A DNA stretch of 64,000 nucleotides. Origin: Lophium mytilinum. Its lineage: Eukaryota. The translations under genes and the position numbers were made by a program. Of the stretch, positions 35,383 through 64,000 are shown piece after piece (position 1 is the stretch's first letter; each line of letters starts with the position of its first letter). The stretch spans positions 1,521,032 through 1,585,031 of the forward strand of contig MU004182.1 in the NCBI GenBank assembly GCA_010093605.1, read 5' to 3'. A model generated the notes under the pieces. The model was not told the origin of the DNA. It saw only the letters and a program-made list of their open reading frames with translations, and did no database searches.

Positions 35383-35561
35383 TATTATAGTTATATATAT
35401 TAGTAATACTTATATAGAGCTTATAGAGAACTATATATAATATATAGTATATATATATTAGCTATATAAGTATAGCTCTTAGTTAGTGCCGTTCTTAAGA
35501 TGGCGCTATAGCTCTAGCCTAATAGAATACCTTTTACCTCTATATCTTACTTCTTATAATA
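35383..35561 (+). repeat. 5' LTR of Gypsy B
   Basis: Colinear with 43085-43263; the differences seen are transitions. Confidence 0.93.
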
Positions 35562-41500: not shown

Positions 41501-43084
41501 CCCGGTAAGAATATATATAATACTAAAGATTAGGCCTATATAGTACTAGATCTTCTTATAGACTAGGGCGTTCTAGTTACTACTATTATAGACTATAATA
41601 CTAAGTTTATTAGCGCCTTCTAGAGAGAAGTCTTTAAATGTCTAGGTACTAAAATTCTAATATTAATAGCCTATTATCCGCGCACTAATAGGTAGTTAGA
41701 ACGCACTAACTAGATAGTAGAGATAGCTCTCTATTTCTACCTATTATAAGGAAATATAGAGTAGCTAGCCTTCTTATCTATACTATAATATCTATTTAAT
41801 AACTCTATTAATTAGTCTACTAGAAAGTCGCCTAATAAAGTTATCTATAGCTTCTAGTTAAATAAAGGCTTACTAGTAATTACTAATAATAATACTCTTA
41901 GAAGACTAGGTATATATAACCTCTTAAATATCTATAACCTATCTAGCCTAACCTAGTTATTACTTACTATATAAGCTCTAAGTTCTATAGATATTAGCTT
42001 TATTAACGCCTATAAAGTTGCTAGGTATAACGCCGCTAATATAATTACCTTTACCGCTACTAGAATAAAGATATAATTTAATATATCTAGAGCTAACCTC
42101 TAGCTATAACCCGGCGACTTAGTATATATATAGCTCTATAAAGGCTTTAAAATTCCCGAATTATACTAGAAGTTTAGCTAATAGTATATAGGCCCTAGAA
42201 TAATTAAGTATAAGGTTAGAAAGAACGCGTATAAACTTAATATACTCTAGAGCTAGAAGATCTATCTAGTTATCTCTATTAAATAGCTAGAACTAGTAAA
42301 CCCTCTAAATCTAGACCCCTATAGCTATATTTATAATAAAAGTATAAAGGTTATAGAGCCTATAGCTATAGAAGATAACTATAATAATAAGACTAGCGCC
42401 TTCTATAAGGTTTATTACTTACTTACTAGGCGCCGTTACTATATTAGATATTTAAAGAAGCTATTTATAAAGTACCTAGTTAAATAGAAAGGCTATAGAC
42501 CTAAATATAATTAGTAGTAATAATAAGAGAATATTAATAAGAACCTTATAAAGGCCTATAATAACGCCTATTAATAGGCTAATTACTATAGCTTAATTAC
42601 TTCTTAAAGCTTAATTACTATAGTATAATTACCCTAAACCTCTATTAATACGCCGTTATTATTAACCCCTATAAACCTATTACTAGAACCCGTAAATACG
42701 CCTATAGAAGCCTATTTTTACCTATACCTCTATTATCTTATCTAGGCAGCGTCTCTTACCCGCCCGTTATTATATTTACCGCCCGCTAATAGCCTTACTA
42801 GTCTATAAAGCTATCTTTAAAGCTTATATTTTATATAAAGCCGCCGTCTTTTATAACTTCTATAAAGCTATTCTTAAAGCTTATAACTTATATAAAGCTA
42901 CTATCTTTATAACTTCTATAAAGCTATCTTTTCTATAACCTTATCTAGAATATAAATATTATATACGCCTATATTACTGCCGCCCTTATTACCTATAACC
43001 TATTCTTATAACCTTATAATTCTAGATATTATTCTCTTAGGTACGCTTATTAAGGATAATAAGGTCTTTTTTATTTAGAGTAGT

Positions 43085-43263
43085 TATTATAGTTATGTAT
43101 ATTAGTAATACTTATATAGAGCTTATAGAGAACTATATATAATATATAGTACGTGCACATTAGCTATATAAGTATAGCCCTTAGTTAGTACTATTCTTAA
43201 GATAGCGCTGTAGCTCTAGCCTAATAGAATACCTTTTACCTCTATATCTTACTTCTTATAATA
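43085..43263 (+). repeat. 3' LTR of Gypsy B
   Basis: Direct repeat of 35383-35561, followed by TSD TTTAT. Confidence 0.93.
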
Positions 43264-46200
43264 TTTATTAGATAAATTATTTATCTTATTATCTATAGGT
43301 AACCTCTTAGTAGTAGAATTATATAGCTTATTCTCTAGTAGTATTTTATTCTTCTTAGGGCGTTCTTATAGGTAAGCTAGGCTAGAGTTATTTAGCTTAT
43401 CTAGCTTAGCTACTAGTTAAGGCGCTTTTCTAGGGCGACCTCTTATATAAACGCGTAGTCTAGAGTTATTTAGCTTATCTAGAGTAGTAGGTAGAGGGTA
43501 TATATATATAACTACTACTAAGTAGATATTATTATTATTATCTAGATAATTAAATTTACTAAAGTTATATATTATCTTAGCTAGTTTAATAGAAGTATAT
43601 TTAAATATATTAGTAAGAATATATATAAGCTTAATAGTATAATATATTTCTAGCTTATAGTTAGATAGTTTTAGTATAACTTATTTTTAATACTTATATC
43701 TATTATCTTCTAGGGCTAGCTTATTACCTAGTTATTAAGTTAGTAGGTTAGGCTTTTTATTCTACTTGCCTGGTTTATATATAATCTTAAAGTTAAACTT
43801 AGCTAGAAACTTAGCCTAGTAAGCTTATTAATAATTAAGGTACTTAGATATTATAAATATTTAGAGGTTCTTATAATCTAAGATAATATTAATAGAACTA
43901 TTATACTCTTATTCTTATCTAGTAAGCTCTAGTCTCTATTCTTTAAAAGTAAGTACTATAGTAAGAAGCTCTTTATTATAGATAGTATAGTTAATCTACT
44001 ATAGTATTATATAATATAATATAAATATAACTAGGTAGAATATTCTATCTAGTTAAACCTAAGAGAGTACTATAGTAGTAGTATAATTAGAGGAGTTATA
44101 TTCTATCTAAGTATTATAATCTAGGTTCTATAGTGCTAGCTATAGAGTAGCGCGGAAATATTCCTTAATATTATAGAAGGCTTTAGCTTTATTACTATTA
44201 TCTAGCTATAGAAACTTAAAACCTTTTTATATAGTAGAGGTTAGCGTTATTAGTAGGGCTATAAACGCGGAGTAGTCTATAATAAAATAATAGTAGAAGT
44301 TATAGAATTTTAAGAAGGCTTAAACATTCTTAAGGTTTTATAGCGTTAGCTAGTTAAGTATAGTTTAGACTTTAGCTAGATCTATTTAAACGCTATTAAC
44401 ACTAATAAGTATACCTAGGTATTTAACTTTATTAATAGTAAATTTGCATTTATAAATATTAAGAAATAGCCTAGCATTATAGAGCTTAGTAATAATTATA
44501 AAAATATACGCCTTATATTCTTCTAGTATATTACTATATATTAGAATATTATCTATATATATAGTATAGAAATTATTAAGATATTTCTATAAGGTATTAT
44601 TAATATAAGTCTAGAAAGAGCTAGGCGCGTTATATAGTCTAAATAGAAGTACTATAAATTTAAATAGTCTCTAGCGCGTAAGAAAGGCTATTTTATACTT
44701 ATTACCTTTCTTAATCTAGAGTGCATTAAATATACTAATAACATCTAGCTTAGTATAATACCTAGCTTTAGCTAGCAACGCAAGCGTGTCCTTAATAAGT
44801 AGTAGTATATTATAACTTTTAATACTAATTTTATTAAGACTATAATAATTAATATAAATATAAAGTCCTTCTTCTAGCTTCTTAATAACTAGCGTAGGTG
44901 CGGCGTATAATAATAAACTAGAATAAATAAAGCCTTTAGCGCGCATTTTATTAATAAAGGCTTTAATAATAGCAGCTTAATTTCTTAAAAGTCTATATAC
45001 TTTCTAGGCAGGCGGCTTAGAGTTAGGGAGGACATTAATTATATAGTCTATTAGTTAATAAGGTAGAAGCTTATTAGCTTTATAGGGATTCTACGCATCT
45101 ACTATATAGTATAGCTAATTAGAAAGTAACTTTTTAATCTCTTTATTAGTAATTAGAGGCCGATTTATCTTCTTAAAGAACTTCTAGTAATTAAAAGAGT
45201 TAATAGTAAAAATATTAGTAGTAAAAGTAGCTATTTATATATTATATAGAATATTATTAAGTTTAGTAAGGCTATATAGGGCTAGGTCTATTTCTAGTAT
45301 AGAGGTATAAGGCGTAGAAGAATAAGTTATAGGTAGAGGCTTTCTACGCTTATATTCTTCTATCTATTATAGCTTTTTCTAATTATTATTCTAGAGTTAA
45401 ATAATATAGTTCTCTTTACTATAGCGCTAGAGCTTTTAGTAGGCTACTATTATATTCTTTACCTTATCTAGTTCTAGGCTAAGTTTTTAATACTTATTAA
45501 AGACTTTCTAAAGTATAGTATTATATATATACTTACCTACTTAAATAATATTATAGTCTTTACTATTACTCTATATATATCTATATCTATCTATATATAG
45601 ATAATAATTATAGTAGAAGTCTTTATTAAAATTAAGGGCGTGCTTACTCTATATAATATTAGGCTTATATTTCTTAAATTATAGTATTTCTAGAATAATA
45701 TTATAGCCTTTAAGGTTAGTAATATAATACTATATATTCTCTATATAAGCTTCTAAGAATAGTATAAGCTAGGCCTTATAGGTTATAAGCTTTATAGGTA
45801 TACTATTAGCTAAGTATAGAGAAATAGAAGTAACTAGTAGTAGTATTATTAGCTTATTAGCTTTAGCGTATAATTATAAGATAAAGGTAAAGTAGAAATA
45901 GCCTATATTAGTAAGATAGTAGCTATTATTTATACTATTAGGTATATAAATTCTATACTTAAAATTTAACTACTTACTATAAGTAATATTTTAGGTTAAG
46001 TTAGTAGAATAAGCTAATAGTTAGATTTCGCCGGGCTTAGAAGGCGGCTATTCTAATTCTTAGATATAGACTATAATAGTACTTAGAAAGAATTCTATAT
46101 AGCTCTATTTATAACTATAGTTAGAGCCTATATAAAACTCTTCCTATTACTAATACTACTATTACTATTACTAAGAATACTAGATAATAAGAGTTTATTA

Positions 46201-47722
46201 GTATAAGTAATAATAGTAAGGTTCTCTCTATTACTATTAATAGATATTAAATTATTAGAACTATTCTTATTAGTATAGTAGATTATAGAGAGCTTAAGCT
46301 TAAGTCTATTCTTAGCTTTAGATAGTTACTTAGTTAGCTTACACTTAAATAGAGGGGGGTTATTAGCATAGGGGCGCTTAGAGTTATTAGCTTAATAACT
46401 CTTCTTAATATAGTAGAAGTAGTAGCCCTTAGTATATAGAACTAATATAACTAATAGAGGAAGGTAAATTATATAATTACCTTAATTACTCTTATTATTA
46501 TAAGGCGTAGATAGCTTTTATCTATAGCTCTACTTAGGGCGGCAGTCTTAGTAGTTATTTAGTTAGTAGTTACTTAAGCGGGTATTACTATAGCTATTAT
46601 AGTTATTACTATACCTATTATAAAAACTAGATAATTAAGTAGGCTAGGTAGTTATATTACACTAGGTATTATTCTAAAAAAAGGCTTTAGCGCGGAATAC
46701 TATAGTAATAAGCGTAGGCTAGTTCTAGTAGCTATTAGTACTACTAAATACTTAGTAGCTAAGATCTAGGCGTAGAAGATACTTAAGCTAGCCTTTCTTA
46801 GAAGTAAAAGGTATCTAGTTCTTATTATTAATATTAGTTATTTCTTTAAAATATAGTATATATATATTCTATAACTTATAGTTCTTTATTTTTATTTTAA
46901 AGCTATAGAGAATATTATCTATATAGATAGGCTTATTAAAGATAGTAAAGTATAGGTCTATATAGGTAAATATCTATTTAAGAGTCTTAAAGTTCTTATT
47001 TAGTAAAAGCTTCTTAAACTAGGTATAGCTATAAATAGTTACTTCTATATAATTAGTATAGTATAACTTAATATATTCTATCTTACTCTACTTATCTAGA
47101 TAGGCTAGTACTTTATATTAGAAGATAGTATAAGTATAGCTCTTCTAAAATAGGTATTAGTATTTATTATTCTTTTCTATAAATTTCTAGAGGTTATAAA
47201 ACTTAGATTTATTATCTCTATAGAGTTATAAGCGCGTAATCTAGGCTATAGCGTTATTATTTATAATAGTAAAGTTATTATAATTAGTATTATTATTATT
47301 ATTATCTTCTAAGTTATAATTTAGGTTGCCTGCGGCGGCGGCGGCTGCAAGGCGTAACTATACGGGCGCTAATAATACTATTTAGTTTACTTTTAAATTA
47401 GTATATTACTTCTTATAGGTAAGACTAAGCTCTTTAAAGTAATTATATTAGGTTTAGAGTTAGTTTAAATTCTATTAGGCTATAGTAATATTCTAATAGA
47501 GGGCGTTAATCTCTAGGCGTACTTTACTAAGCTAGAGAGCTTTATCTTTATAAGCCTTATACTTAGTTATAAATTTTTAGTTATACTTAGTATATACCTT
47601 CTTATTTTCTAATTAAAGACGTGTAATATTCTTATTTAATTAAGTAACCTTAGCTTATAAGCGTAAGATTTAATTAGGGTCTTAAGCTTAGTTATAAAGA
47701 GTAGTTAGTTCTATATCTTAGA

Positions 47723-47942
47723 TATTATAGCTATAATATAACTTCTATTATAATATATTTCTAATATATATAATAGTATTATATACTCTATAGTATATAA
47801 TTACTATTATATAACTAGGCTTAGCGCTAGCCTTGCCTACCTCTTAGCCGGCGCTCCGCGCCCTTCTTTCTTTCTTATAGCTACTTTATCTATATATACT
47901 AATATTAGGTCTTTTCTTATAATTTACTATTATACTATAATA
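47723..47942 (+). repeat. 5' LTR of Gypsy C (220 bp)
   Basis: TATTATAG...CTATAATA ends. Shares a core (CTTAGCGCTAGCCTT.CCTACCTCTTAGC) with the LTR of A. Confidence 0.85.
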
Positions 47943-50900
47943 TAAAGTAGCTACTAGAAGTTTCTAGAAGTACTTTTTTCTACCTACCTACTTACCTATA
48001 TATATATCTAGCTAATTTAATAGGCTAAAATTTTAATATATAAACCTAATACCCTCTATATTAATATAAGGAAGGCTTAGAAGAAGGCTCTATAATCTTA
48101 TAGTAAGAACTCTATATACCCTGCTAATTAGAGGCGCGCAGGCCCTATATACCTACTTACTATTACACGTAACTAACTAATATAAGTATAGTTACTTTCT
48201 ACTAATAGAGTAAGAACTATATATACTCTATTAGTAATAGGCTAGCGCATAGACTCTATATACCTACTTACTACTATTACGCGCAACTAACTAGTTTATA
48301 TATAGTTATTCTATTTTTATTTACTAATTAAAGGCAGCCGCTAAGTATAGTACTAGCTACCCTAGAAAGCACGCCTACTTTTAAGCTTTTATAAAGGACC
48401 TACACCCTCTACCTTATACTAACCTTTCTTATTAAATAGTTAATAAATACTTACTAGTAAAGATATAAATAATACCTCTAAGACTAGCTATACTAAGCTA
48501 TAGTAGAAAAACTCTAACTCTATATAGTATAGCTATACTAAGCGCGTAGTCTATAGATTTACCTTCTAGCGGCATAGCTAATAAGCGTCTAGTTATTCTT
48601 ACTTATACTCCTGCCCTCCCTACTAACTTATAAGCTACTTAATCTACTTTTATATTTAACTCTTAAAAGGCGCATAAGCTTAATTACTAAGAAAAGAAAG
48701 CCGCCTATAAAATAGGCGGCGGAGAAGTATTATAATACTAACTAACTATAACTCTAGAAGCTCTTACTATACGCACTAAAAAATTTAGTAATCTAGAACT
48801 AGATATTTACCTTCTACTAAATTAATTTAGTACTAACCTACTATAAAGCTAAGCCTATTATAACCTTACTAACTCTACTAAGTAGAATACTAATAATAAG
48901 GCCTATATAGATTAAGGTAAAGATAAAGAGAATTTTAAGTTATTTACTAAAATATCTATATCTTAAGCTATCTAATTTACTAAACCCCTAGTTAATCTAA
49001 CTACTCTATCCTTCTTCTAAATTCTAATTATATTAAAGGACTAGGTTATTACCTCTACTACTAATACTATTATAATTCTAAATACCTACTCTAGCTAAGA
49101 ATAGCCTAATATAGCTAACGCAGGCGCAAGTTCTACTAGAACTAGCGGCTAACTACCTAATTATTAATAGTCCCTTCTTATAGATAATAATAATAGTATA
49201 GTCTTTACTATTAACTAAGCTAGGAATAGCTAATCTATTAATATTACTATTAATAATATAGAAGAGCTCTATAATATAGCTTAAAATAAATATATTAGTA
49301 TTTATACTATACTACTTAACTATTACTAAGAACTAAGTAAGTTATATAAAGATGTTAGAAATATAGCGGTAGCTATTTAATAGAAAGATAATAAGATTAT
49401 ATAACTTTAAGAATAGAATATAGGCATGTTAAATAAGGTTAAACTTAAAAACCTCTATAACTAATATATAAAGCTCTATTACTAGATAGCTAAAATATAT
49501 ACTAACGCTACTAACTTTACTAATAAGCGTAATTACCTTACTAAGCAGCTAGCGGATAAGTATAAGAAGAATAATACTTAGACTATTCTTATTACTAAGC
49601 TTAGCGTTAAGATTAAAGGCCTTACTACTAAGATAGCTAAGGTTACCTTTTACCGCAATTAATATTAATAGTAGTATAATACCTTTTACGCCTAAGGTAT
49701 AGAATATAAAAAGAAGTATAAGTAAGCTATATAGTAGTAACCCTAAATATACTTCTAATAAGATAATACTACTATCTATAGTAACTATAGCTACCTCTCT
49801 AATAAAGGTAATAATAATAAGCTATCTAACTATAACTACTTTACCTAGCCTAACTTCTTATATAATCTAAACGCCTAACCTACTATAAACTTATATTAGC
49901 TATATACTAAGTTCCACAACCTATAGAAGTTTAAAAAACATAATAACTAGTCTAAATATAAATTATAGAAAGCTTACGCCTATACTATCTTCTATAATAA
50001 GCCTTAAAACTTCCGCGATAAATAAGCTAAGCTTAAGTACATTAAATTATACTATATAGAATTTACTAATAGCGTAGTATATAATTGCACCTAATAGAAC
50101 CGCCCTATAAATAATAACTTTAAAATAGTTAAAGAGATATTTAAGATAATAGACCCTTACTTTATAATTAAAGATAAGGCTATAGCTATAAATAATAAGC
50201 TCTATAGCTAGCAGGCGTATATAAAGTATAATAAGAAATAGTCTATTTTCCTCCTTTAATTCTAGAAAATAATTTCTATAGATAATAATAGAGAGATAGA
50301 CTTTATTAATTAAAAGGGATAGCTTAAGCGCCTTATTACCCCTAAACTCTAGACTTAGGTCTTTAGCGCCGCTAATAACTATACATTCTAGCTAGAACTA
50401 GTTACCGCTATTAACCGCGCAGTATTATATCTTGCTAGCGAGCGCAAACGCGCCCGCAAATAGTAATATTCTAACGGCCCTTTCTAGAATAATAGTAATA
50501 GCTTAAAATATACTAATAAGCTATTTACTAATAAGTCTAATTATAGCTTCTAATAGAACTTTAACTATAACTCTAAGATATACTTATTATATTCTATTAT
50601 AGATAATAGCTTACGCTGCTAAGACTATAATAGCAACACCCGCCGCATTTATCTCCCTCCTGCGGTAACTAAAGTCCTTAGTAAATAGAATAAGAATATC
50701 TACTATAACTATCTTAAGATAGAATATTATATATTAGATTATAACTATTTCTATATAAAGAACGCCTCTCCCTCTAAAAAAATAGTATAATAACGCCTTA
50801 TCTATTTCTAAAAAGGGCTAGATCTAAAGCTCTCTATAATTTACTATATAGATAATTCTGCATCTAATATTAAGCTTAGTAACGCCCTTACTACTATTAA

Positions 50901-51866
50901 CTATAATAGTAGTAATAATAACGCTATATAAGAAAACTTCTTAAATAGTAAGAATTTTCCCTAGGCTTTAACTATAGTTATAGTTAGAGTCTAGTAGATA
51001 TTTATCTAAGTATATTAGTTGCCTGCATTTACGAACTAGAGTAACTACTCTCTAAGCTAGATAAACTCTAGCTTTTAGCCTACGCTATTAATTCTTCTAA
51101 GAAAGTTATATAAGGAAAATAGCTTAACTTTAAATATAGAATTTATACTTCTACTACTAGTATTATTAATAGTAGGTACTTAATAGATATAGGCTACTTA
51201 TATCTAGCTTTTATATTATATATATTTATAAAAACCTAGAAGCTTATAACTATTATAATTACTAAACTAATATCTCTATAGCTCGCTAATAGTTACTCTA
51301 TACTAATAGTTACGCATAAAGCCTAGATTATACTATTACTTAGCGCTTATATTAAATACCTATAGTACTATATTACTAACCTTTAAGGCTATAATATTAT
51401 CCTTAGTATATTCTAGTTTAAGTACTATAAGCCCTATTCTATATAGAGAGAGTACGCTCTAGACTTTAACTCTAACTACTATGTAAGCTACTACCTATAT
51501 ATAGATAGCTGCCGGCGCATCTAGAGTAATAGCTATAACTAAGATATTATCTATAAAGGAAAGAAACTATATAATAGCGCCTTATATAAAATTATTAATT
51601 ATTACTATAAGCTTAGCCTTAACCTAGATAAAGCTAATAACTTTCTTACTAAATATTATAAACTTACCTATAAAGGTAAGAAAGATACTATTATCTAACT
51701 ATAGAATAAAGACTTTAATAAGCTTTACTATCTTAACGCCTATAAAAATAAGGCTACCTATACTAGTACTATAGCTAATAATCTAGCCCTCTATAGACTT
51801 AATAAGCTAAATAAGGCTCTAGCTTAGAAATAAGCTATATTTATATCTAATCTCTTTATAATTAAC

Positions 51867-52100
51867 TATTATAGATAAGCTATTATTACAGGCCGTGCAT
51901 ATATACAACGGGCAGTTATACGGCAGCGTTATTATAAGGTCTTAAATACGTAGTATAGAACTATTATATATTAGTAGAAGTATTAGAGGCTAACCCTCTA
52001 ATATATTATAGCTATCTATTCTAGTTTTATAACTATTTCTTTCTTTCTATTACCTACCTTTATATTACCTACACTCTATAGGGTTATATTATATATAATA
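51867..52100 (-). repeat. 3' LTR of Gypsy D
   Basis: Direct repeat of 62430-62663; the differences seen are transitions. Confidence 0.93.
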
Positions 52101-52159
52101 ATTACCGCGCCTAAGAATTATCTCTTCCGAGACGGTGTAATAAAGAAGGAGTATAGTAC

Positions 52160-55100
52160 TTAGCCCCGGCTACGGCTACCTCTACTATTACTGCCGCCGC
52201 AACCTTATTTTCTAGATAGTGTTGTTTATATCTTTATAGGCGTGTCTATCTCTATAGCTTATAGCTTTACCTTCTCTATTAGTTAGGTCTTTCTAGTAGA
52301 GTATCTTAATATAGGTAGATATTTCTTCTTTAGCCGCTTATTACTAATAAGGACTTATAGCTATTTAGTTTACTTCTTTTATTTAACTTCTTTATCTTTA
52401 GTAAGATTAGAGTATACTATAGCTGCGCCGGCGACTTCTTCTTATATAATATTGTTATTCTTCTTGCTAGTAGAGTAGTTAGAGGGGTTATTACTAGTAG
52501 AGTTATTATAGGTAGAGTTATTATAGGTAGGGTTATTATTATTATAGGTATAATTATTACTAGCAAGGTTATTATAGAGAGGCTATTTATCCTTACTATT
52601 ATTCTCGCTGCTAGGTATATAGCTATTAATATTAACTATTATTATATTAATCTTCTTCTTAATAATCTCTTTATTCTTACTATCTAATATATTCTATGCG
52701 GCCGGCTTTATTAAATTACGGAGTTCTAGAGGAGTTGCGCTTAGGTTTACTAGGTTGTTATTATCTAAGGCTACTTACTTATTCTTATTAACTATAGTAT
52801 TATTATAGTTTACTCTAGATAATAAGTTCTTTAGGTAATTATATTTAATGCGGAAGCTGTTAGACTCTTATTATTCTAGCTTTAGTTACGCCTAAGTTAT
52901 ACCGGTTCTAGTTATAGAATTATCCTTTAATAGCTTCTACTTTATAGTTATTACTTTTAGTACGCCGCTACTTATTATACTCTTTAGCTTTACTAGTACG
53001 GGTTCTACTAGAGTTAGTATTAATAACACTAGGTAGCCGCGTAGAGGTATTATAGGCTTTAGCCTATTATACTATATAGATAGCTTTCTAGATAGTATCT
53101 TATTAGTATCTCTTACGCCGCGTTATAATTTTAGAGTATCTATTAGTAATATATATAAAGTATATAGTAATTTCCCGCTCTACTAAAAAGGTTCTATTAG
53201 TATCTTTTTCTACTTAGCGGTATAAGCTTATAAACTAGTAGTTATTACCGCAGGTTCTATTAAAGCCGCTAATATAATAAACCCTAGTTCCTCTAGTATT
53301 ATCTTAGGTATATAGGGTTAGCTTACTAGTAATATTATCTTAATAGGTTATACCGCGTAAGAGTTAAAGTTAGTTTCTTGCGGCTTATTATTATTTATAA
53401 GAAAGGTAGAGGTAGTTATTACTACTCTACTTATTAGAGGTAGTAGAAGAATATTATATTCTAGAAGGGCCCGCACCCCTTAATTAATGCCTGCACCCCT
53501 TATAATAATATTCTATAGGTTAGCCTCTATTACTTTAATAGCCTTCTTATTAAGGCTTATATATAAGTTACTACTCTTATAAATTAGTTACTAGAACGCT
53601 ATAGTAATAGCGGCGCTATTATTAATTCTTTCTAAGTACTTCTCTATATCTTAAAGAAGAGCTTAATAAGCCCTAGTTTTCTATATAGGCATGCCTTAGG
53701 TAATAGTATTAACGCTAGCTAGAGTAGTAAGCGCTAATAATATTCTATCTATAGCTTATGCGGTCTTCTTATATATAAAGCTTTAAGTAGTCTATCTATA
53801 GTAGATGCGGGCGTAAATACTCTATAAGATATAGCTAGCGCCTATAATTAGGCGTTAGTCTTAAGTAGTTCTAAATCCGGCTTCTTTACCGCTCTCTAAT
53901 TATTTAGCCTAGGTAAGAAGTTTAGTCTTACGCGTAAGTTTCTCTTAGAGCGTGTTTACCTTATTCTAGAGCTTATTTCTCTACGCCTTTATCTTTATAT
54001 AGCCTATTAAGTTATCTTATAGATTACGCTTAGCTATATAGAACTTCTTAGCTAGAATTCTAGCTTATAGTAAGTTAAAAAGTATTACTAGAGTATAGTT
54101 TACTATTATATACTTAATAGTCTTCTAGAGCTCTTTATTAATAGTAAGCTTCTTTACTATCTTCTACTCTACTTTCTTAGCGTTCTTATAGGTAGCCTGC
54201 GGTTTAAACTTACTAGGGCGGTCTATAGAAAAGACCTCCTTAATATAGACCTAGTAAGCTTTATTCTAACTATAGATTTCTTCTCTAATTACTATATTAT
54301 AATAGATAGTATAGCGCTAATATACTATCTATAATATAAATATATTCTATATAGCTTACTATTAACTAGAGTTCTCTATATAGGCTTCTTCTAAGTTATT
54401 TTTATTATACTCTATTTTCTCTTTAGGCTCTAACTAGTCTATAATATTAGAAATCTAGGTCTTTTTAAGGCAACCTTACTAGTCTATATCTAGCCGGCCA
54501 CTATATAGCTATAGCTTATTACTCTTACCCTTCTAAACTTTAGATATAAAGCCGCCGTCTCTACTCTTTATTAAATTATTAGAGTTATTATTAGATAGTT
54601 CTAGGGCGTTATTATTATTATTCTTATTACTTGCAACGGCAACCTTTAGTAGTTATATATCTAGATCTTTATAGCTTATATACTTATCTTATATAAATTA
54701 TAGAATAACACCTTTATAGATAAGAGATATTTATAGCTTATATTTATTCTATATAATATATATAGTCTCTTTTAGGTTTTATTACTATGCTTAAATTCTA
54801 GAAGAACTTAGTATAGGGGGGTGCTTAGGTACTTTCACTTTAGAAACTATTATACTAAGGTTTAAGCGGACTTCTTCTTTACTATATAGTATACTTACTC
54901 TAAATATAAGTAAGTAGTAACTATTTTATTCTACTACTACTATTTTATATAGCTTCTCTATATAATCTCTAAGGAGACCTCCTTACTTTATAAAGGTTGC
55001 TAGGTATATTATAGCTAAGGTTACTATAGTTATCTTACTCTATATAACTAGAAGTAATAGCTTATTTATATACTAGTCTATTAATTATATATTTATAGGC

Positions 55101-55270
55101 GGCTAATTAGCCGGGTTATTTATTACTAGATACTAAAGAGTAAAGAGCTTAAACTTATAGCGGGCCGCGCCGTAGTAAGTATATTTATTCTTCTTCTTAT
55201 TCTTAATAAGGTCTTTAGGCAGGGCGCCTTCTCTATTATCTACTTTCTAGATGCGGGAGAACACAGCTAT
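52160..55270 (-). pseudogene. Additional ORF relic (~1000 codons, unknown function) downstream of pol in Gypsy D
   Basis: Protein-like codon runs on the pol strand. Asn/Lys runs consistent with RIP-converted Asp/Glu tracts (~54560-54630 and ~52480-52570). Basic C-terminus ending GCGGSNSRGSRSRG* at 52160. Frame changes by eye suggest introns or indels. Confidence 0.6.
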
Positions 55271-55319
55271 ATTACTGCAGGGGGGGGTTACTAACCTTTA
55301 GTTATGCGATAAGGTTGTT

Positions 55320-55367
55320 AAAAGATAAAGGTATTAAAAGATAAAGGTATTAAAAGATAAAGGTATT
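55320..55367. repeat. Tandem repeat, 3 x 16 bp (AAAAGATAAAGGTATT)
   Basis: Three exact copies between the pol stop and the extra ORF of element D. Confidence 0.9.
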
Positions 55368-58300
55368 AGTCTAAGAATAAGTTATTATAATATAGGCTAA
55401 GCGCTTAGACTATATTACTTAATAATACTATAAACAGCCTTATTGCTTACTAATAGTATAGAAGAATAGTTGCTAAAACGCTAACCTACTAAGAGTTTAT
55501 TACTTAGTAATAGCGCGGAGTAATAGTCGCCTAAATACTAAAAGTTTAAAGTAGTTAATATAAGGTCTTCTTCCAGCGCGCCTTAAATTTAGCTACTATA
55601 TCTAGAATATCTTCTTATAGCTATATAACAGGTTCTTATAATATTTTATTATAATTTTTCCACTTAACTTTATACTTATTACCGTCTTTAGTTATAATAT
55701 AGTATAGAATCTTCTCTATAACCTATTACTCTACTTCTTCTATAATAACTAGCTATAGAGAAGAATGCGTATAGTTATATAGGTTAGCTATAGCTTACTC
55801 TAGATATACTACGCTAATAACTAGATATATATAACTAAATTTCTTTAGTAACTCTAGTTTATATACTAGCTTACTAATTTATTACTTTATTCTAAATAGC
55901 TCTACTTTAACTAGCGACAGTAAAGAGCTGTTAGGAAGTTAATATTTAATCTTAGTGCCTTTTACTACTTTTAGGTAGACTAAGCCTATAAGGTTAGGCG
56001 GCGTATACTTCTTATTATAGTATATTACTATCTTAGCTTATACTAGCTTTAGCGCGTTAGTAACTTCTAAGTAAATAATCTTATAGTTCTATAAAAACTC
56101 TATATCTTATATATTAGAGTTATAAAAGGTCTTTAGCGTTATACTATAAGTAACTTTAAATAGGGTAAAGCCTATAGAGGTAGTAACTGCAGTATTAATT
56201 ATATATTCTACCTATAGTAGTAAGCTCTACTATATAACCTTATATTAGCTAATAAGAAGGCATTATAATATTATCTTAATAACTTAGTTTATGCGCTCTA
56301 CTTATCTATCTATAGAAGGGTAATAGAATATTATTATTTAGAGATTAACTTTATAGCGCGTAAATAGTTCTTTCTAGAAGGCGCTTATAAACTTAGAATC
56401 GCAATTACTAATAATACTATCTAGTAATCCCTAGTTACAGCAGACTCTATTAAAGAACCTCTGCGCCTATACTTCTACTAAGTTAGTATCTTTACTAATA
56501 ATTAGGCGGACTATCTTTATAAACTTATTAGTAACTATTAGTATAATATTATTATCTTCTATAGAAAGTAGCAGCGCTACTATAAAATTAATTACAACTA
56601 TTTAGAAAGGCTTATCTAGTACTAGAATAGGCTATAGAAGTCTAAATAGCTTCTACTTTCTTATTTTAGAGACCTTATACGCTAGATAAGCTAGAACCTA
56701 TTCTTTAAGCTTACTATAAAGCTTTAGAGTAAAAATCTTATAGCGTAATTAATAGTATATTCTAGTACTACTATTATAGCCTATATATTTATAGGCCTTC
56801 TTAATAGCGTCTATAACTATATTACTTAGTAGATAGAGGCGGCTGTAATTCTTATCTCTAATATATAGTAAGCCGTCCTTAAGAATAAAGCTATAGTAGT
56901 AAAAGGCTTTACCTTTTACTACCTTCTTCTATATATATTCTAGAATTATTTAGAATATCTTATTTTTTCTTAAGTTAGCTATAATCTTTATATAATATTT
57001 AGGTTTAATATACACTATTATTATAGCTATATACTGCGCTAGGTTACTATTTTCTCTTATAGAGTCCCCTATTACAGGTAGTCTAGATAAACTATTAGCA
57101 TTTTTATAGTATTTCCCGGGTTTATAAATAATCTTTATTCTTAGAAAGGTAGAGAGGTATAGTTTCTATTTATAGAGTCTTACTAACTATCTTTTCTTAC
57201 TACTAGTCTAGAGGGCTAATTTTAAGGCCTTATAGTTAATATAGACTATAAAGTTATTACTATTAAGATAATACTAAAGCTTATAGAGTACCTAAACTAG
57301 GGCTCCTGCTTCTAGTTCTATTATCTAGTAGTTCTTTTTATATTTTTTAAGTGCATAACTAATATAGGTAACTAGTTATTCTACCTTATTAGCTTCTATC
57401 TAGTATAGGGCGTATCTATATCCTCTCTCTTTAGAGCTATTAATATAAATAATAAATAGCCTATAGTAGTTAGATAGTACTAGTATAGGTTATTTATATA
57501 GCTTACTCTTTATAAGCTTCTATGCGCCTAGACACTCTTAAAAAGAATTAGTAATAGCCTATTACTAGGTATATATCTTCCGCGCACGGCCTTTTAGCAG
57601 GCTATCCTTTAGACTAACTAGTTTTAGTTCTTATAGTAGTTAAATTATTTCTATAAAGCCCTTAATATACTTATAGTACTATTTAAAGAATATAAGTTTT
57701 AATTCTAGTTTCTATAGCGTCTTTAGAAACTATATATTATAGATAGCTTCTATTTTTTCTTTAGTAGTACTTAGTTCTAGTTATAATATATAGTAACTAA
57801 GAAGATCTAGGCTAGAGTATATAAAATAGCACTTAGCTAATAATAGTGTAACTCCGGCTAACTCTAGCGCTATAAGATACTTATTAAGGTGTTATATATA
57901 TTCTTCTTTTAACCGGAAGTATACTAGAATGTTATTAATATATACTATAATAAACTTCTATAGGTATAGCCTAAATAGCGTCTCTATATAATATTAGAAG
58001 AAGCCTAGAGTATTTACTAAGTCTATTATAGTAATAGTAAGTTATTTATAGCCCCTATAGATAGAAATAAAACCTATTTTCTATCTATTACTCTCCTTAA
58101 GTTATTATTAGAAGAAGCCTTTAGTTATATCTATTAAGAAGAAGATAACAGCTCCCCCTAAGAGGTTAAAGATATTATTCTATTTTAGTAAGGGGTATAC
58201 GTCTAGATATAGCTTTATATTAACCTTCTAAAGGTTAACTACTACTTATAGCTTTCTATTTCTCTATATAATAAATGCTAGAGAAGCTGCTACTAAAGGT

Positions 58301-61300
58301 TATTCTAGAGGAATCTTTTTAACTTATTCTTATACTATTAGGGGGTTAAGAACTTTATCTATAGCCTTCTTATCTTATTCTAATAGCCTATAGGCTCTCT
58401 ACTTTAGGCTATAGATATTCTTTTTATCTATAAATAGTATTAGCATTTTAATACTATTATTAAATAGCCTAAGAGCTTTATTCTATAGCTTACTATACTT
58501 CTAGAGGTACTTAAGTACTTATTCTTTATAACTCTAGTCCTATTTATAGATGTTAGCTTAGAGTAAGTCTATAAGGGTGTCTTTCTTAGGGTTTATAATA
58601 AATAGAATATCTATTTCCGGGGCGTTATCTTTAATATCTTTTTAAAGCGTATTAGTGTTATTCTTTATAGGCTTTATATAGAGTGCGTCCGGTGTATTAG
58701 CTTTACCTAATTCTACGGGGATATTATCTTTAGCAGGTTTCGCCTAAAAGACTTGCGTAAGATTTACTTTAACATTCTATTCTTTTTAATTCTCGCTGTA
58801 GAAAGGTTTTATGTAGCCTATTTAGCGGCCTTTCTTAAGAATAAGTAGTCTTAACCTAAAGTTTAAGAACGGGATATTATTATTAGTATCTACTAGTAGT
58901 GCACGCGCTCTAAAGCTATAGATATTATTCTCTATATCTATAAAGTCTATATGCGGTTTAAATAATTATAGGCCTAGTTTCTATATAGAATAATGTGCCG
59001 GAATATTAAGGCTATATTCTAGCTTAATAATAATATCTGCTATTAGAAACACTCTAGTTGCCTTTACTTTTAGCTTTTATTTAGCGGGAATATTCTTTGC
59101 AAGAAGTTCTAGCAGGAAGAACCGGTCTCCTTATTATAATCTATTAATTTCTAGCTTATCCTTCTATATAAGGTTAAGGCCTACTAATTATAAATTATTA
59201 ATACTAAGAAGGAGCCCGCAGTCTAAATAGGGGATAATATAAGCCTCTATAGGCAAGTTAAGATTATATCTATTAGTATCTATTAATGTAATAATAATAT
59301 TTACCTAAGCTCTTAAGCGGACTACTTTATCTATAATGCCTAATATTTAAATGCTTTTTTTTCTAGGTATTTTAACTACTTATAGGTAATACTATTTTAT
59401 CTATTTATTATCTATAAGCGTAATAATAGTCCCTAAATCTAGTATTATAGTAAAAGGTATACTAGCGGGGGTACTAGCCTTTAGCTTAATACTAATATAC
59501 TATAAAAACCTATCTTCTAGTTAAATATACTTTATAATTTATACTTAATATACTCTAGCGGCATTATAATATAAAGATATTAGGTTGTTATCGGCCGGGG
59601 TTTATAGTTGCGGAATATAACTAGACGTTAACGCTCTAAGTTCTTATTTTCTAAGTCTTAGAGTAGTTGTTCTAATAGTTCCTTAGTATATAAAGATATA
59701 TTACTTATATTATTATTAGCTTTATTACCGCCGTCTTTATCTAATATTAGCTCTATTTTATACGCTTTATTTCTAGTTATTACTTTTAACAGCTTATTCT
59801 TATTATTTAGGCAGAATTTACTCTAGTATATCTACCCTATCTTTCCTTATACTTTATAGATAAAGTATTTCCGCAGGGGTAGCTTATTATAATTTTATAT
59901 GTCTAGTTTCTTATCTTAAATAGGTGCTGTTAATACGCCGTACTTCTTACTAGCCTGCGTAATAAGCTACTTAACTCTATCTATAGTACTAGTCTTATCT
60001 GCAGTTCTATAGGTATTCTTCTTACCCTAATTTAAGTATTAGCGCGTACTATTATATGCTAGCCTTACTTATTCTATTCTCTATAGCTTCTCTACTATAG
60101 GTAGTTACTACTAATAGTATTACTAGAAGCTCTAGAGATTATCTCTAGTTTTATAGATCTAAACTATATTTATTAAGTAGGTATTAAGGCTATACTAGAG
60201 TTTATAGATAACTTAGTATTTATTAGTAATGCCCGCTTTATATAGTAGATTAATCTTCTTAATTATATACTATAAGAAGAAGAGCTAATTCTACTTACTA
60301 AAGTAGAACTTTATATTTTACGCTTCCCGTTACGCCTTATATGTTAGCTTGCAATACTATTATACTAGTTAGTCTTTCTAGAATACTAGTCTATAGTTTA
60401 TATTCTCTTAAGCTTATATTAGTAGTAATATATACTATCTAACAGCGTCTTCTTAAAGGTAAAGTAGTAGAAGTATAAGTATAGCTTATTCCCTATATAA
60501 GGCGGCTAGTTAAGTAAACCTTCTAATAAATAGGCTAACTAGTTGTTTAAGAGGGTTAAAGAGCATAATATTGCTAGGCCGGAGTTTTAGCAGTTAAATA
60601 TTTACTAACGGCTGCGGCTACTAGGTGTACCTAGGTACTTAACTAGAGGAGTTATTAAAAGACTAGAGTTAGTAGTTATTCTATAGTTATAGCGCGTTTA
60701 ATAGAGGTTATTACGGCTGCCAGCCTAGGGCTTTAAACTATCTATAGCCGGGAGGGGGTTGCCTAAACTATCTATACTAGCTAAGAGAAACTTATCTAAA
60801 CTATCTATACTATCTAAGAGAAGCTTAAGATAGAGCTTATCTAAATAGTTCTTAGGGTAGAGCTTATCTAAAAGGTTCTAAAGGTAGAGCTTATTTAAAA
60901 GGTTCTAGGGGTAGAGCTTATCTAAACTTCTCTATCTCTTTACGCGCTTTAAGTTAATTAATGCGGCTAAGAATCTCCTAAAAGATTCTATTATTACTAT
61001 CTTTAATTATATTTTAGTTATAATATTAGTTGTAATATTAGTTATAATCGCCTTAGAGTAAGTTAGCTTACTTAGATATTATATTATCTTTAATAGAGGG
61101 TATAATATTCTATTTATACTAAAATATAATATTATCTAAGTTACTTATTATTTTACCTAGTTCTTATTAAAAACGGGCTATAATAGTACTAACGTATTAA
61201 AGGCCTTCTTATAGGCTGGAAAATATATAATTTATATACTTTAGGTTAAAGAGGTTAAGAACTTCTAATATTAGGTCCTTCTAGCGTTTATTTATTATTA

Positions 61301-62429
61301 TCTTTACTATCCCTCTTGCTTGCCCTTAAAGTGCTAATCTAATCTTAGCAACCTATAGAGGGTACTCTACTTATTACTAGAGAAGAGTTCTAATAAATAG
61401 CGCATCTCTCTTAAATTATTTCTTAGTGTATTAAGCAGCTAGTTCTAGCGTCTTCTTTAGTAGACCTTGCGTGCGCTTATTACACGGAGGTATTATTAGT
61501 CTCTATATAGTTACTCTCTATATAGTTACTTTCTATTTTTATTAATTATATACTGCCTATAGGCGTTAAAATAGTATTACTATCTTTACTTTACTAGAGG
61601 TTATTTCTAGCTATATATTATCTAGAGTGTTATTATTAAGTATTAAATAGATATCTTCTATTAGGGCCTCTAGAGCTTATTATTAAATATCGCCGGTAGA
61701 GTCTTATTACTACATTTTAGGAATAACTAGATTATTTACTGCTGCGGGAAAGTCTATAAGGACTATATTTAAGATAAATAATAGATTATTCTCTATAGAT
61801 AGTATCTTAAGATCTACTCTCTATATAGTAAGATAATAAGTAGTTTAAATAGAATTAGTAGAGAGGCTATTAAGAATATATATCTCTATACTTAATTCTC
61901 CGCTAGCAGCTATAACTAACTATATTAATAATATGTCTTATATAATAATCTATAGTACTAATTAAAAGTAGCCGGAGATAAGAATAACTTAGAGTATAAT
62001 GTTTCTTAAAGCTTACTAAATTAGAGACAGGGCTTACTTATAGCTATTATTATGTACTTATCTATATAGCTCGCGTATATATAATAGTAGTCTAGCTTAT
62101 ACTATTAAAAATTATTTTAACTTATTATTATTATAGGTAAGTAGTGTAGAGTAGTAATAGGTTATATATTATTATTTTTCTAGTAGTGCTTTCTACTATT
62201 AGTAGTTATTATTAGCTCTTTCTTACTAATATATCTATACTAATAAATCTAATATAGTAATTATTAGAGATAGAGGAGAGAGTATTAGCTACTACTATAG
62301 CTGCTATTACTTTACTCTATACTGCTACTTATCGCTTTTATAGAATAGAGGTAAGGTAAGATTTAATAGAAAGAGGAGATATATAGTGCTAGGCTAAGAG
62401 TTTTAAAATTATCTATCTTAGCTACTAAC

Positions 62430-62663
62430 TATTATAGATAAGCTATTATTACAGGCTATATATATATATAACGGGCAGTTATATAGTAGCGTTATTATAA
62501 GGTCTTAAATATATAGTATAGAACTATTATATATTAGTAGAAGTATTAGAGGCTAACCCTCTAACACGTTATAGCTATCTATTCTAGTCTTATAACTATT
62601 TCTTTCTTTCTATTACCTGCCTTTATATTACCTGCACCCTATAGAGTTACGTTATATATAATA
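62430..62663 (-). repeat. 5' LTR of Gypsy D
   Basis: Direct repeat of 51867-52100, followed by TSD TTAAC. Confidence 0.93.
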
Positions 62664-64000
62664 TTAACCCTACTAACTATAGAAAATTCTTTAATAAAAT
62701 AAATAGACTACCTATTACTAATAATAAGATTAAATAGCTACTACTAGATTAGCTCTATTACCTTTATAATATATAGAACCTATAAGTAGCTAATATACTA
62801 CCCCCCCACCGCAAAATAGACTACTTAATTAACTTTACGCCTAATAGTAAGCTACTAGTATAGAAGGTCTATAGTCTCTTATAAGATTAAGCCGCTATAG
62901 TTAAAGTATTTATTAATAAAATATAATCTAAAGGCTTTATTTAACTAAGTTTATCCTTCTTTACTACTCTAATACTTATTATTAAGAAACCTAGTAGGGG
63001 CCTATATATCTATATAGACTATAGAGGACTAAATAATATTATAATTAAAAGCTATAATATACCGCCTCTAGTTAAGAATATATTAGCCCTACTAGCTAAA
63101 GCTAAATACTATACTAAGCTAGATATTATTAGCGCCTTTAACGCTCTATATATTAAAGAAGGTAATAAATATAAAATAGCATTCTTAATAAGATAGGGTC
63201 TATTTAAATTCTTAGTCCTTCTATTTAGCTTATATAATGCACCTAGCTTATTCTAAGCCTATATTAATAATATACTATATAAGAATCTTAACTAGTACTA
63301 TATAGCCTATATAAATAACGTACTTATCTTTAGTAATAACCTAGAAGAGTATAAGAAATATATTATCTCTATAGTTATAAAACTAAAAGATATAGGCCTC
63401 TTTTTTAATATTTATAAGTCTAAATTTGCAGTCTAGAAAGTTAAGTACCTAGGCATTATTATAGGCGTTAACGGCGTGTATATAGACCTATATAAGGTTT
63501 AAATAGTACTTAACTAGCCTATTTCTAGAAACCTTAAGAATATCTAGACTTTTCTAGGTTTCTATAACTTCTACTATTATTTTATTACTAGATATTCTAA
63601 GTTTATAGTACCTCTCTCTACGCTTATATTATCTACTAGAAAATTATTTAAATTCCCCTAGAAAGATAATAGTAATAAAGTACACGCGTTTACCCGCATT
63701 AAGAAATATTTCTAGAATGCCCTCTAGCTAGCTCTATAGAACCTAGACTATAAGATATAGATTAAATATAATTTCTTAGATTATATAGTAGTAGCTATAC
63801 TATTATAGGTCTAACTAGATAGTACTCTATAACCTATTACCTTTATATTATAATAAATAATACTATAGTAAATTAACTATACTATCTATAATAAGAAACT
63901 GCTTACTATAGTTCTAGCGTTTAAAGACTAGCGCCTAGAACTTACCGGCTAAGGCTAGAAATATAGTAGCCCTATTAATATAATCTCTAACTATAAGAAC

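What the first reader, a model, noticed from the sequence alone, without database searches (positions are those of the whole stretch)
52101..55555. Fungal chromovirus carrying a ~3.1-kb extra gene between pol and the 3' LTR
Seen: D is 10.8 kb against 7.9 kb for B. pol ends after the chromodomain at ~55556, yet ~3.4 kb remain before the LTR, inside the TSD-bounded element. On the pol strand this stretch reads as protein: a putative start ATA-GCT-GTG (ATG after de-RIP) at 55270, four bases after a C-tract-TGCAG acceptor-like site. It continues through acidic tracts and a helical-looking middle to a basic tail de-RIPing to roughly GRGGSDGRGGRGRG*. I see no clear transmembrane segment, though RIP obscures this. 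Established: env and other additional ORFs occupy this position in some LTR elements and are often expressed from spliced RNA. Inference: a non-env accessory protein (acidic plus RGG, nucleic-acid or chromatin binding), possibly an anti-silencing factor or captured host gene. This is the best candidate for an undescribed system here.
Basis: partly seen in the sequence, partly recalled or inferred. Interest (0 to 1): 0.78.

Follow-up and report, generated by a model that had tools for sequence, protein, structure and literature searches.

The report
Dead fungal retrotransposon with third gene
A mutation-riddled jumping gene in a fungal genome carries, after its usual genes, the remains of one more large gene whose function cannot be read from this copy; such extra genes are known in this class of element, so it is a modest curiosity.

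Summary
Element D is a complete LTR retrotransposon on the minus strand: 234-bp LTRs at 51867-52100 and 62430-62663, a 5-bp TSD (TTAAC) and 10,797 bp in all. It sits in heavily RIP-mutated DNA of a Pleosporales fungus. pol ends at TAA 55557-55555.

The next 3.45 kb keep one codon register on the pol strand, that of 55270, down to TAA 52162-52160, 59 nt before the 3' LTR. In-frame stops number 79 in 1,035 codons (7.6%), all TAA or TAG. That matches the known pol frames of D (7.1%) and B (7.0%), so RIP alone can explain them. I found no termini of a nested element. Diverged contigs in DNA runs of the same species cover this stretch about as deeply as pol, so other copies carry it too.

The function is not recoverable here. 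There was no Pfam, PDB or 1.84-billion-protein match and no usable fold. This blank means little, because D's own pol is barely detectable after RIP. The acidic tracts, helical middle, splicing and anti-silencing role remain untested.

Additional ORFs of unknown function have already been drawn for fungal Gypsy elements. Verdict: a real, integral third ORF, now a fossil; a new member of a known kind; interest is modest.

The parts
51862..51866 (.). Target-site duplication TTAAC, left copy
   Evidence: Identical 5-mer at 62664-62668. The empty-site joint 51860->62663 shares 6 letters.
51867..52100 (-). 3' LTR of element D (234 bp)
   Evidence: Aligns to 62430-62663 with 20 mismatches, all transitions.
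52101..52159 (-). 59-nt tail of the internal region between the ORF3 stop and the 3' LTR. It contains a purine run GGAAGAGATAA but no clean polypurine tract abutting the LTR.
   Evidence: Read directly from the sequence.
52160..55270 (-). ORF3 remnant, minimal extent. It has 1,036 codons from ATA 55270 plus TAA 52162-52160, with 79 in-frame TAA/TAG and no TGA. The coding register may start as far upstream as 55582.
   Evidence: Stop density is 7.6% against 13.9% and 16.7% in the other same-strand frames, the same pattern as D pol and B pol. The RIP-invariant R/Y register supports it. The strand comes from the 64-codon model and the TAA/TAG pattern per frame.
52163..52204 (-). Gly/Arg/Ser-rich C-terminal tail, 14 codons (GCGGSNSRGSRSRG as read)
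   Evidence: Translation. Five of the six Ser/Asn/AGA codons have their first A in a TpA context, so they could have begun with G before RIP.
52473..52603 (-). In-frame 15-nt (5-codon) tandem repeat giving the N/S/T/Y/P-rich low-complexity tract
   Evidence: period 15, 3.5 copies, 92% matches.
55275..55287 (-). C8 tract followed by TGCAG, four bases before ATA 55270. It looks like a splice acceptor; this is untested.
   Evidence: It is one of only two runs of seven or more C in the AT-rich half of the window.
55318..55368 (-). Perfect 16-nt x 3.2 tandem repeat between pol and ATA 55270
   Evidence: 100% matches, and the period is not a multiple of 3.
55555..59700 (-). pol of D. The RNase H match is about 57148-57537, the SH3_Tf2-1 hit is weak, and the chromodomain is about 55648-55722. 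The first stop after it is TAA 55557-55555.
   Evidence: Pfam; sequence.
59701..62429 (-). 5' part of D. A gag-like coding remnant with low stop counts in frame p%3=1 lies at about 60200-61100 and contains in-frame 27- and 33-nt repeats. About 1.3 kb of leader has no steady coding register.
   Evidence: No Pfam hit.
62430..62663 (-). 5' LTR of element D
62664..62668 (.). Target-site duplication TTAAC, right copy

Best explanation
D is a RIP-inactivated Ty3/Gypsy chromovirus of a Pleosporales fungus. Its family carried a third, large open reading frame (ORF3) of at least 1,036 codons between pol and the 3' LTR, on the same strand. ORF3 was part of the element's transcribed and reverse-transcribed unit and was copied with it.

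Shown: before RIP it was most likely an uninterrupted ORF, because every in-frame stop is of the kind that RIP makes from Gln or Trp codons.

Inferred: it encoded a soluble accessory protein rather than an envelope protein. It has low-complexity tracts and a Gly/Arg-rich C-terminal tail, which would suit nucleic-acid binding. ORF3 lies in the -1 frame relative to pol. Expression would therefore have needed a subgenomic or spliced RNA, re-initiation, or a frameshift near the end of pol; none of these is shown.

Today all detectable copies are mutated fossils and the gene does nothing.
For: Integrity of the element. D has an LTR pair, a 5-bp TSD and an exact empty site in paralogous copies of the host repeat.

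Coding signal.
- ORF3's frame has 79 stops in 1,035 codons (7.6%; 42 TAA, 37 TAG, 0 TGA). The known pol frames have 98 in 1,377 (7.1%, D) and 102 in 1,460 (7.0%, B).
- The two off-frames run at 13.9% and 16.7%, like pol's 13.9% and 15.0%. In the +2 frame TAA far outnumbers TAG, as in both pols.
- As read, the frame has almost no Gln, Trp, His, Met or Cys (2, 0, 1, 1, 2), as expected if RIP converted them.
- The R/Y codon-class model, trained on the B and D pols, prefers this register over the other two by at least 37.8 nats over 3.1 kb, and in 50 of 60 sliding windows.
- Within that register the 64-codon model prefers the minus strand by 36.6 nats (trained on B) and 137 nats (trained on D). 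In cross-validation the true sense beat its in-register antisense by 27.6 and 39.3 nats.
- The 15-nt repeat is in frame.

Position. ORF3 ends 59 nt from the LTR. No TIR, LTR or poly(A) marks its borders.

Other copies. In DNA runs X1 and X2, summed contig depth over the ORF3 bins is 184-497 (X1), against 174-426 over the gag-pol bins and about 108-160 for single contigs. Two different contigs, about 95% and 84% alike, cover 52968-53346. The differences are almost all transitions.
Against: No homologue, domain or fold was found, so the gene cannot be shown to be a real protein family. The strand call rests on models whose frame-level cross-validation was poor, and the R/Y model cannot tell the strands apart. 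The plus frame p%3=0 has even fewer stops (78); the same antisense shadow is seen opposite pol. Copy number was inferred from contig depth only. I could not see the other copies' sequences or test for purifying selection. There is no RNA evidence. The start codon is undefined. Ten of the 60 windows prefer another register by small margins, so small indels cannot be excluded.
Confidence: 0.6

Rival explanations
1. ORF3 is a cellular gene, or a piece of one, picked up by an ancestor of the D family, for example by read-through or template switching. It was then carried as a passenger with no role in the element's life cycle.
For: It has no retroelement-like domain and no similarity to D, B or the other Gypsy element in the window. 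Capture of host ORFs by transposons is documented in another Pleosporales fungus, though there by DNA transposons (PMC3538342, passages read). Capture by LTR elements is documented in rotifers (PMC5408684, seen as a listing and the start of the abstract only).
Against: No host paralogue was found among 1.84 billion representative proteins or in the window by RIP-invariant matching. Both blanks are weak after RIP. A 1,036-codon uninterrupted frame with no sign of introns, filling the whole pol-LTR interval, fits a dedicated ORF better than a random capture.
Confidence: 0.2
2. The 3.4 kb is an unrelated transposable element, or a fragment of one, that inserted into a D copy in the same orientation. 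It was then propagated or duplicated with that copy.
For: Nesting of TEs is the rule in such AT-rich blocks (PMC3105345, passages read), and D itself sits inside another repeat. 'Complex' fungal LTR elements with additional domains have been attributed to multiple insertions (PMC3248453, passages read). RIP could hide a transposase or RT: RVT_1 and rve are missed in D's own pol.
Against: There are no terminal inverted or direct repeats, no poly(A) and no second TSD at the borders. One frame runs from about 300 nt or less after the pol stop to 59 nt before the LTR. Depth over the stretch in other copies is not lower than over pol.
Confidence: 0.1
3. There is no sense-strand gene here. The frame signal is either a by-product of composition, or the shadow of a gene on the plus strand, antisense to pol.
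For: The plus frame p%3=0 has the fewest stops (78). The R/Y model does not resolve the strand.
Against: The same low-stop antisense frame accompanies the proven pol. The plus-strand reading is a Leu/Ile/Phe/Tyr-rich string with no Pfam hit. Per-frame stop counts and TAA:TAG ratios fit the minus-sense pattern of both pols, not the plus-sense pattern. A register kept over 3.1 kb is far from the Markov control.
Confidence: 0.05

Closest known systems
[quoted passage not shown] 2010, PMC2864245; Figure 3 legend and text passages read, figure itself not seen)
   Same: These are fungal Ty3/Gypsy elements with a chromodomain-bearing pol and an extra ORF of unknown function. The paper reports element lengths from about 4.4 kb to more than 13 kb, so 10.8 kb is within range.
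   Different: I could not see which families carry the extra ORF, where it lies or how long it is, and the one supplement held as text has no mention of it. No sequence comparison was possible. The copy here is RIP-destroyed.
env-like third ORFs of Athila-type plant elements and insect errantiviruses (recalled; Athila is mentioned in PMC2864245; errantiviruses in the abstract listing of PMC13524379)
   Same: The ORF lies between pol and the 3' LTR on the sense strand. Expression from a spliced subgenomic RNA is the textbook solution, and a pyrimidine tract plus CAG precedes ATA 55270.
   Different: There is no signal peptide or clear membrane span in the RIP-invariant scan. The host is a walled fungus, no env homology was found, and splicing is untested.
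LTR retrotransposons of bdelloid rotifers with captured additional ORFs (PMC5408684; seen as a listing and the start of the abstract only)
   Same: They are LTR elements that carry extra ORFs beyond gag and pol.
   Different: They are animal elements. I did not read which ORFs they carry, and here no domain is recognisable.
Large RIP-degraded Gypsy families of Pleosporales AT-isochores, e.g. RLG_Rolly of Leptosphaeria maculans (11,875 bp, LTR 235 bp; Table 4 of PMC3105345, read)
   Same: It is an oversized Gypsy element (about 11-12 kb against about 7 kb for its neighbours) with an LTR of about 235 bp, in RIP-mutated AT-rich blocks of a Pleosporales genome.
   Different: No sequence was available to compare, and the paper's supplements could not be read. 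RLG_Rolly is described as specific to L. maculans 'brassicae' (PMC4210507). The best relatives of a host gene in this window are only 68% identical. This is a lead, not a match.

Membership tests
Ty3/Gypsy LTR retrotransposon | Two LTRs in direct orientation flanked by a 4-6-bp target-site duplication | tested here: met
   234-bp LTRs at 91.5% identity, TTAAC on both sides, and an exact empty site in paralogous repeat copies.
Ty3/Gypsy LTR retrotransposon | pol with PR-RT-RNase H-integrase in that order | tested here: inconclusive
   RT_RNaseH (6e-12) and RT_RNaseH_2 (7e-12) were found, plus a weak Tf2-type integrase SH3 (E 0.6) downstream. RVT_1, rve and RVP were not detected even at E<=10. 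The best protein match, P0001 (E 1.1e-13), carries rve, RVT_1 and RNase H domains.
Chromovirus | Chromodomain at the C-terminus of integrase | tested here: inconclusive
   The Pfam Chromo hit has E 0.004 and 17.5 bits, below the 25.1-bit cut-off, at the very end of pol. The residues read there (YKVKWKNYN...EP) resemble the usual chromodomain core, which I recall rather than tested.
env-carrying Gypsy elements (errantivirus / Athila type) | Third ORF between pol and the 3' LTR on the sense strand | tested here: met
env-carrying Gypsy elements (errantivirus / Athila type) | Signal peptide and transmembrane anchor in the ORF3 product | tested here: not met
   The second-codon-position (RIP-invariant) scan found only two overlapping 20-codon windows with 17/20 hydrophobic-class codons, and they include an Arg. 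The N-terminus as read is not hydrophobic. The test is crude.
env-carrying Gypsy elements (errantivirus / Athila type) | Expression from a spliced subgenomic RNA | not testable with these tools
   No usable RNA data were available; details are under Tried and rejected.
Independent nested transposon | Own termini (TIRs, LTRs or poly(A)) and own target-site duplication at the borders of the 3.4-kb stretch | tested here: not met
   Only short AT-rich matches of 70-84% complementarity were found, none at matching border positions, and there is no direct repeat of 60 nt or more.
RGG/GAR-box nucleic-acid-binding proteins | Clustered Arg-Gly-Gly repeats | tested here: inconclusive
   The 14-codon tail reads G, C, G, G, S, N, S, R, G, S, R, S, R, G, with no RGG triplet as it stands. 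Five of the six S/N/AGA codons could have begun with G before RIP.

The most novel reading that the evidence does not exclude
ORF3 is a lineage-restricted accessory gene of a Pleosporales chromovirus family with no cellular or retroelement homologue. It would encode a roughly 1,000-residue nuclear, nucleic-acid- or chromatin-binding protein, made from a subgenomic RNA, that helped the element integrate into or survive in heterochromatin, for instance by countering silencing. That would be a kind of retrotransposon gene not yet characterised in fungi.
Probability: 0.1. Interest if true: 0.7.

Novelty: new member of a known kind. Interest (0 to 1): 0.33.

Why it matters
If intact relatives exist, a 1,000-residue third gene in a fungal chromovirus would be a handle on how such elements deal with heterochromatin and genome defence in fungi. 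Extra retrotransposon genes have hardly been studied there. As it stands, this copy is a fossil. It mainly explains why element D is 2.9 kb longer than its neighbour B. It also shows that RIP can erase homology signals so thoroughly that 'no hit' carries little weight in such regions.

Tried and rejected
Homology and fold searches on ORF3
- phmmer of ORF3 (stops read as X) against 1,835,955,588 representative proteins: 0 hits at E<=0.001.
- Pfam at E<=10 on ORF3, and at E<=5 on the three plus-strand frames: 0 families.
- PDB sequence search: one match at E 0.21, treated as noise.
- AlphaFold2 on the single sequence: mean pLDDT 33.2, 0 of 1,035 residues at 70 or above. The model is unusable, so no fold search was run.
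- The ESM Atlas does not accept a read-through translation.

Sensitivity control
- D's pol, read the same way, found only 2 proteins at E<=0.001 among 7,999 candidates scored.
- It matched only RNase H-type Pfam families significantly.
- The blanks for ORF3 are therefore weak evidence.

Comparisons within the window
- blastn of D: only pol-level matches to B and to the other Gypsy element.
- blastp of ORF3 against six-frame translations of the rest of the window: best E 2.4.
- Exact purine/pyrimidine matches of 26 nt or more: 6, the longest 29 nt. Five shuffles gave 2-6, with longest matches of 26-29 nt.

Sequencing runs
- No RNA holder was listed.
- The one run guessed to be RNA (X3) laid 0 contigs.
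- The complex-prediction tool was not used.

Models and structure tests
- The 64-codon model does not resolve frames in cross-validation, so I used it only for strand.
- Amphipathic periodicity of the hydrophobic-class pattern: no signal at period 3.6 in the middle third (z -0.1). The same test finds nothing in pol either, so it says nothing about the 'helical middle'.
- Rfam at gathering threshold over D: 0 matches.

Other look-ups
- No whole genome is held for this window.
- Earlier findings of the scan returned nothing by place, by sequence or by words.
- Literature: a search for 'third ORF' with retrotransposon, fungus, gag and pol found 0 papers. The ORF3, Gypsy and fungal-genomes search found 3 papers whose listings looked unrelated; I did not open them.
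- The supplements of PMC3105345 cannot be read here. The one supplement of PMC2864245 held as text has no relevant term. Both may hold the structures of the relevant families.

Considered and not done
- A RIP-degenerate IUPAC pattern scan of metagenome contigs. It had a low chance of finding a fungal relative and would have meant typing an altered sequence.


Full report
Setting. The window has two halves. Bases 1-32000 are 46-61% G+C, and 32001-64000 are 24.5-32% G+C. The AT-rich half carries an extreme RIP signature: TpA/ApT is 1.78 and (CpA+TpG)/(ApC+GpT) is 0.13. In the finding's stretch the two indices are 1.87 and 0.16. A 763-codon ORF in the GC-rich half has 232 relatives at E<=1e-20. 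The best is 68% identical, and the named relatives come overwhelmingly from Pleosporales. No whole genome is held for this window.

The element. The repeat finder gives two LTR pairs: 51863-52106 with 62426-62669 for D, and 35382-35580 with 43084-43282 for B. Aligning D's ends sets the LTRs at 51867-52100 and 62430-62663. They are 234 bp each and differ at 20 sites, all 20 transitions. TTAAC lies on both outer sides. Contigs from two DNA runs of the same species (X1 and X2, one sample) join 51860 directly to 62663 with six shared letters. The flanks are about 15-20 times deeper than single contigs. D therefore inserted cleanly into another repeat family, and uninterrupted paralogues of that repeat mark the exact insertion site. 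D is 10,797 bp and B is 7,901 bp.

pol. On the minus strand, in frame p%3=0, Pfam finds RT_RNaseH (6e-12), RT_RNaseH_2 (7e-12), a weak SH3_Tf2-1 (E 0.6) and a weak Chromo hit (E 0.004, below its cut-off) at the C-terminal end. RVT_1, rve and the protease are not found even at E<=10. A search of the protein collection with this pol returned only 2 proteins at E<=0.001 among 7,999 scored. RIP has removed most of the homology signal from a domain set that is normally unmistakable. This calibrates every negative result below.

Is the extra stretch coding? No ORF of 60 codons or more survives anywhere in 48000-64000, so the test has to tolerate RIP. I used four lines of evidence.
1. Stop counts over 52107-55555. 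A first-order Markov control gives a minimum over six frames of 112 +/- 6.8.
2. Comparison with known coding frames in the same DNA. ORF3 has 79 stops in 1,035 codons (7.6%), D pol 98 in 1,377 (7.1%) and B pol 102 in 1,460 (7.0%). The off-frames run at 13.9% and 16.7% for ORF3, against 13.9% and 15.0% for D pol and 11.3% and 14.8% for B pol. In all three, TAA far outnumbers TAG in the +2 frame. All 79 ORF3 stops are TAA or TAG, the products of CpA-to-TpA RIP on Gln and Trp codons. The frame as read has almost no Gln, Trp, His, Met or Cys.
3. A RIP-invariant model. RIP makes only transitions, so the purine/pyrimidine string is unchanged by it. A model of the eight R/Y codon classes, trained on the two pols, prefers the register of 55270 by at least 37.8 nats over the other two registers. 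It does so in 50 of 60 sliding 240-nt windows from 51880 to 55659, and it switches to the pol register upstream.
4. An in-frame repeat. The 15-nt tandem repeat at 52473-52603 is in frame.

Which strand? The R/Y model cannot tell sense from its in-register antisense: in cross-validation it slightly preferred the wrong strand of D pol. The plus frame p%3=0 has even fewer stops, 78. An equivalent low-stop antisense frame also lies opposite the proven pol, so it is a shadow and not evidence for a plus-strand gene. Three things point to the minus strand.
- The per-frame stop and TAA:TAG pattern fits the minus-sense pattern.
- The 64-codon model puts minus ahead of the in-register plus frame by 36.6 and 137 nats. 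In cross-validation the true sense won by 27.6 and 39.3 nats, although that model does not resolve frames well.
- The plus-strand reading is a Leu/Ile/Phe/Tyr-rich string with no Pfam match.

Extent. From ATA 55270 the frame runs 1,036 codons to TAA 52162-52160, 59 nt before the 3' LTR. Upstream of 55270 the same frame has 8 stops in 104 codons (7.7%) back to 55582, which overlaps the last codons of pol. The true start is therefore unresolved. ORF3 is in the -1 frame relative to pol. It is one of only two runs of seven or more C in the AT-rich half. Whether it is a splice acceptor cannot be tested here. A perfect 16-nt x 3.2 repeat lies just upstream of it.

Integral or nested? There are no inverted or direct terminal repeats, poly(A) or second duplication at the borders of the stretch. 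ORF3 fills the interval almost completely. In runs X1 and X2 the whole element, ORF3 included, is covered by short contigs of 80-99% likeness. Their differences from the window are almost all transitions (X1: 787 of 868 listed changes). Summed depth over the nine ORF3 bins is 184-497 in X1, against 174-426 over the gag-pol bins and about 108-160 for single contigs. Two distinct contigs, about 95% and 84% alike, cover 52968-53346. At least one or two further RIP-diverged copies therefore carry the stretch. It belongs to the family, or at least to the lineage of copies present. Depth of contigs is a crude measure, and I could not inspect those copies or build an alignment.

What is the protein? 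This remains unknown.
- Pfam: nothing at E<=10.
- phmmer against 1.84 billion representatives: no hit at E<=0.001.
- PDB: only a match at E 0.21.
- The rest of the window: nothing at protein level or by RIP-invariant matching.
- AlphaFold2: mean pLDDT 33.

Some weak features can be read. There is no convincing membrane span in the second-codon-position pattern. The as-read tracts are Asn/Lys-rich; they could have been Asp/Glu/Gly-rich, because half of the sense-strand A's sit in TpA. There is a 5-codon repeat tract. The 14-codon Gly/Arg/Ser tail has Ser/Asn/AGA codons that mostly could have begun with G. These features fit a soluble protein that may bind nucleic acid, and nothing more. The 'helical middle' got no support from a periodicity test, which also finds nothing in pol.

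Comparison with what is known. Third ORFs between pol and the 3' LTR are classical in insect errantiviruses and Athila-type plant elements; I recall this, and PMC2864245 mentions Athila. For fungi, the legend of Figure 3 of Novikova et al. [quoted passage not shown] The text gives lengths of up to more than 13 kb. I could not see the figure or find the families in the one readable supplement. Muszewska et al. 2011 attribute extra domains in 'complex' fungal LTR elements to multiple insertions. Oversized Gypsy families exist in other RIP-rich Pleosporales: RLG_Rolly is 11,875 bp with a 235-bp LTR (Table 4 of PMC3105345). No sequence or structural description was accessible. My two literature searches for a third ORF in fungal LTR elements found nothing that looked specific.

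Verdict. The core of the interpretation, an extra gene that is part of the element, is the best-supported reading (0.6). A captured host gene (0.2), a nested TE (0.1) and no sense-strand gene (0.05) follow. The functional ideas are untested, and with RIP at this level they cannot be tested from this copy. I rate it a new member of a known kind, of modest interest.

Noticed in passing
window 43283-51862, minus strand (RVT_1 about 44410-44826, RT_RNaseH_2 about 43933-44193): This is a third RIP-degraded Gypsy-type element between B and D. Pfam finds RVT_1 at E 1.2e-11 and RT_RNaseH_2 at 3e-5. I did not look for its LTRs.
   Followed up: partly
window 49100-50900: The frame pair minus p%3=0 (1-7 stops per 100 codons) and plus p%3=2 (2-13) is unusually poor in stops for this DNA. 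It has no Pfam match in any frame at E<=0.1. It is an unidentified coding remnant, and its strand is unclear.
   Followed up: partly
window 51400-51860 and 62669-63100: The DNA on both sides of D belongs to a repeat present at roughly 15-20 copy-equivalents in runs X1 and X2: depth 2,267 and 1,658 against about 108-160 for single contigs. Several contigs run straight across D's insertion site.
   Followed up: partly
window 60763-60926: In-frame tandem repeats of 33 nt (2 copies, 93%) and 27 nt (3.7 copies, 86%) lie in the gag-like region of D. They give a repeated nine-residue motif in the p%3=1 frame.
   Followed up: no
window 61100-62429: About 1.3 kb between the 5' LTR and the first stretch with a steady coding register shows no consistent frame. 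That is a long leader for a Gypsy element, so D is oversized at its 5' end too.
   Followed up: no
window 55318-55368: A 16-nt unit is repeated 3.2 times with 100% identity inside DNA that is otherwise saturated with RIP changes. Either the unit has no RIP-prone sites left, or the array expanded after RIP.
   Followed up: no
window 10280-12571, minus strand: A 763-codon ORF in the GC-rich half has best relatives that are unnamed or 'hypothetical' or C2H2-domain proteins of Pleosporales, the closest only 68% identical. A conserved stretch covering about 15% of the ORF is shared with DUF1752/DUF3295 (areA-like) proteins.
   Followed up: no
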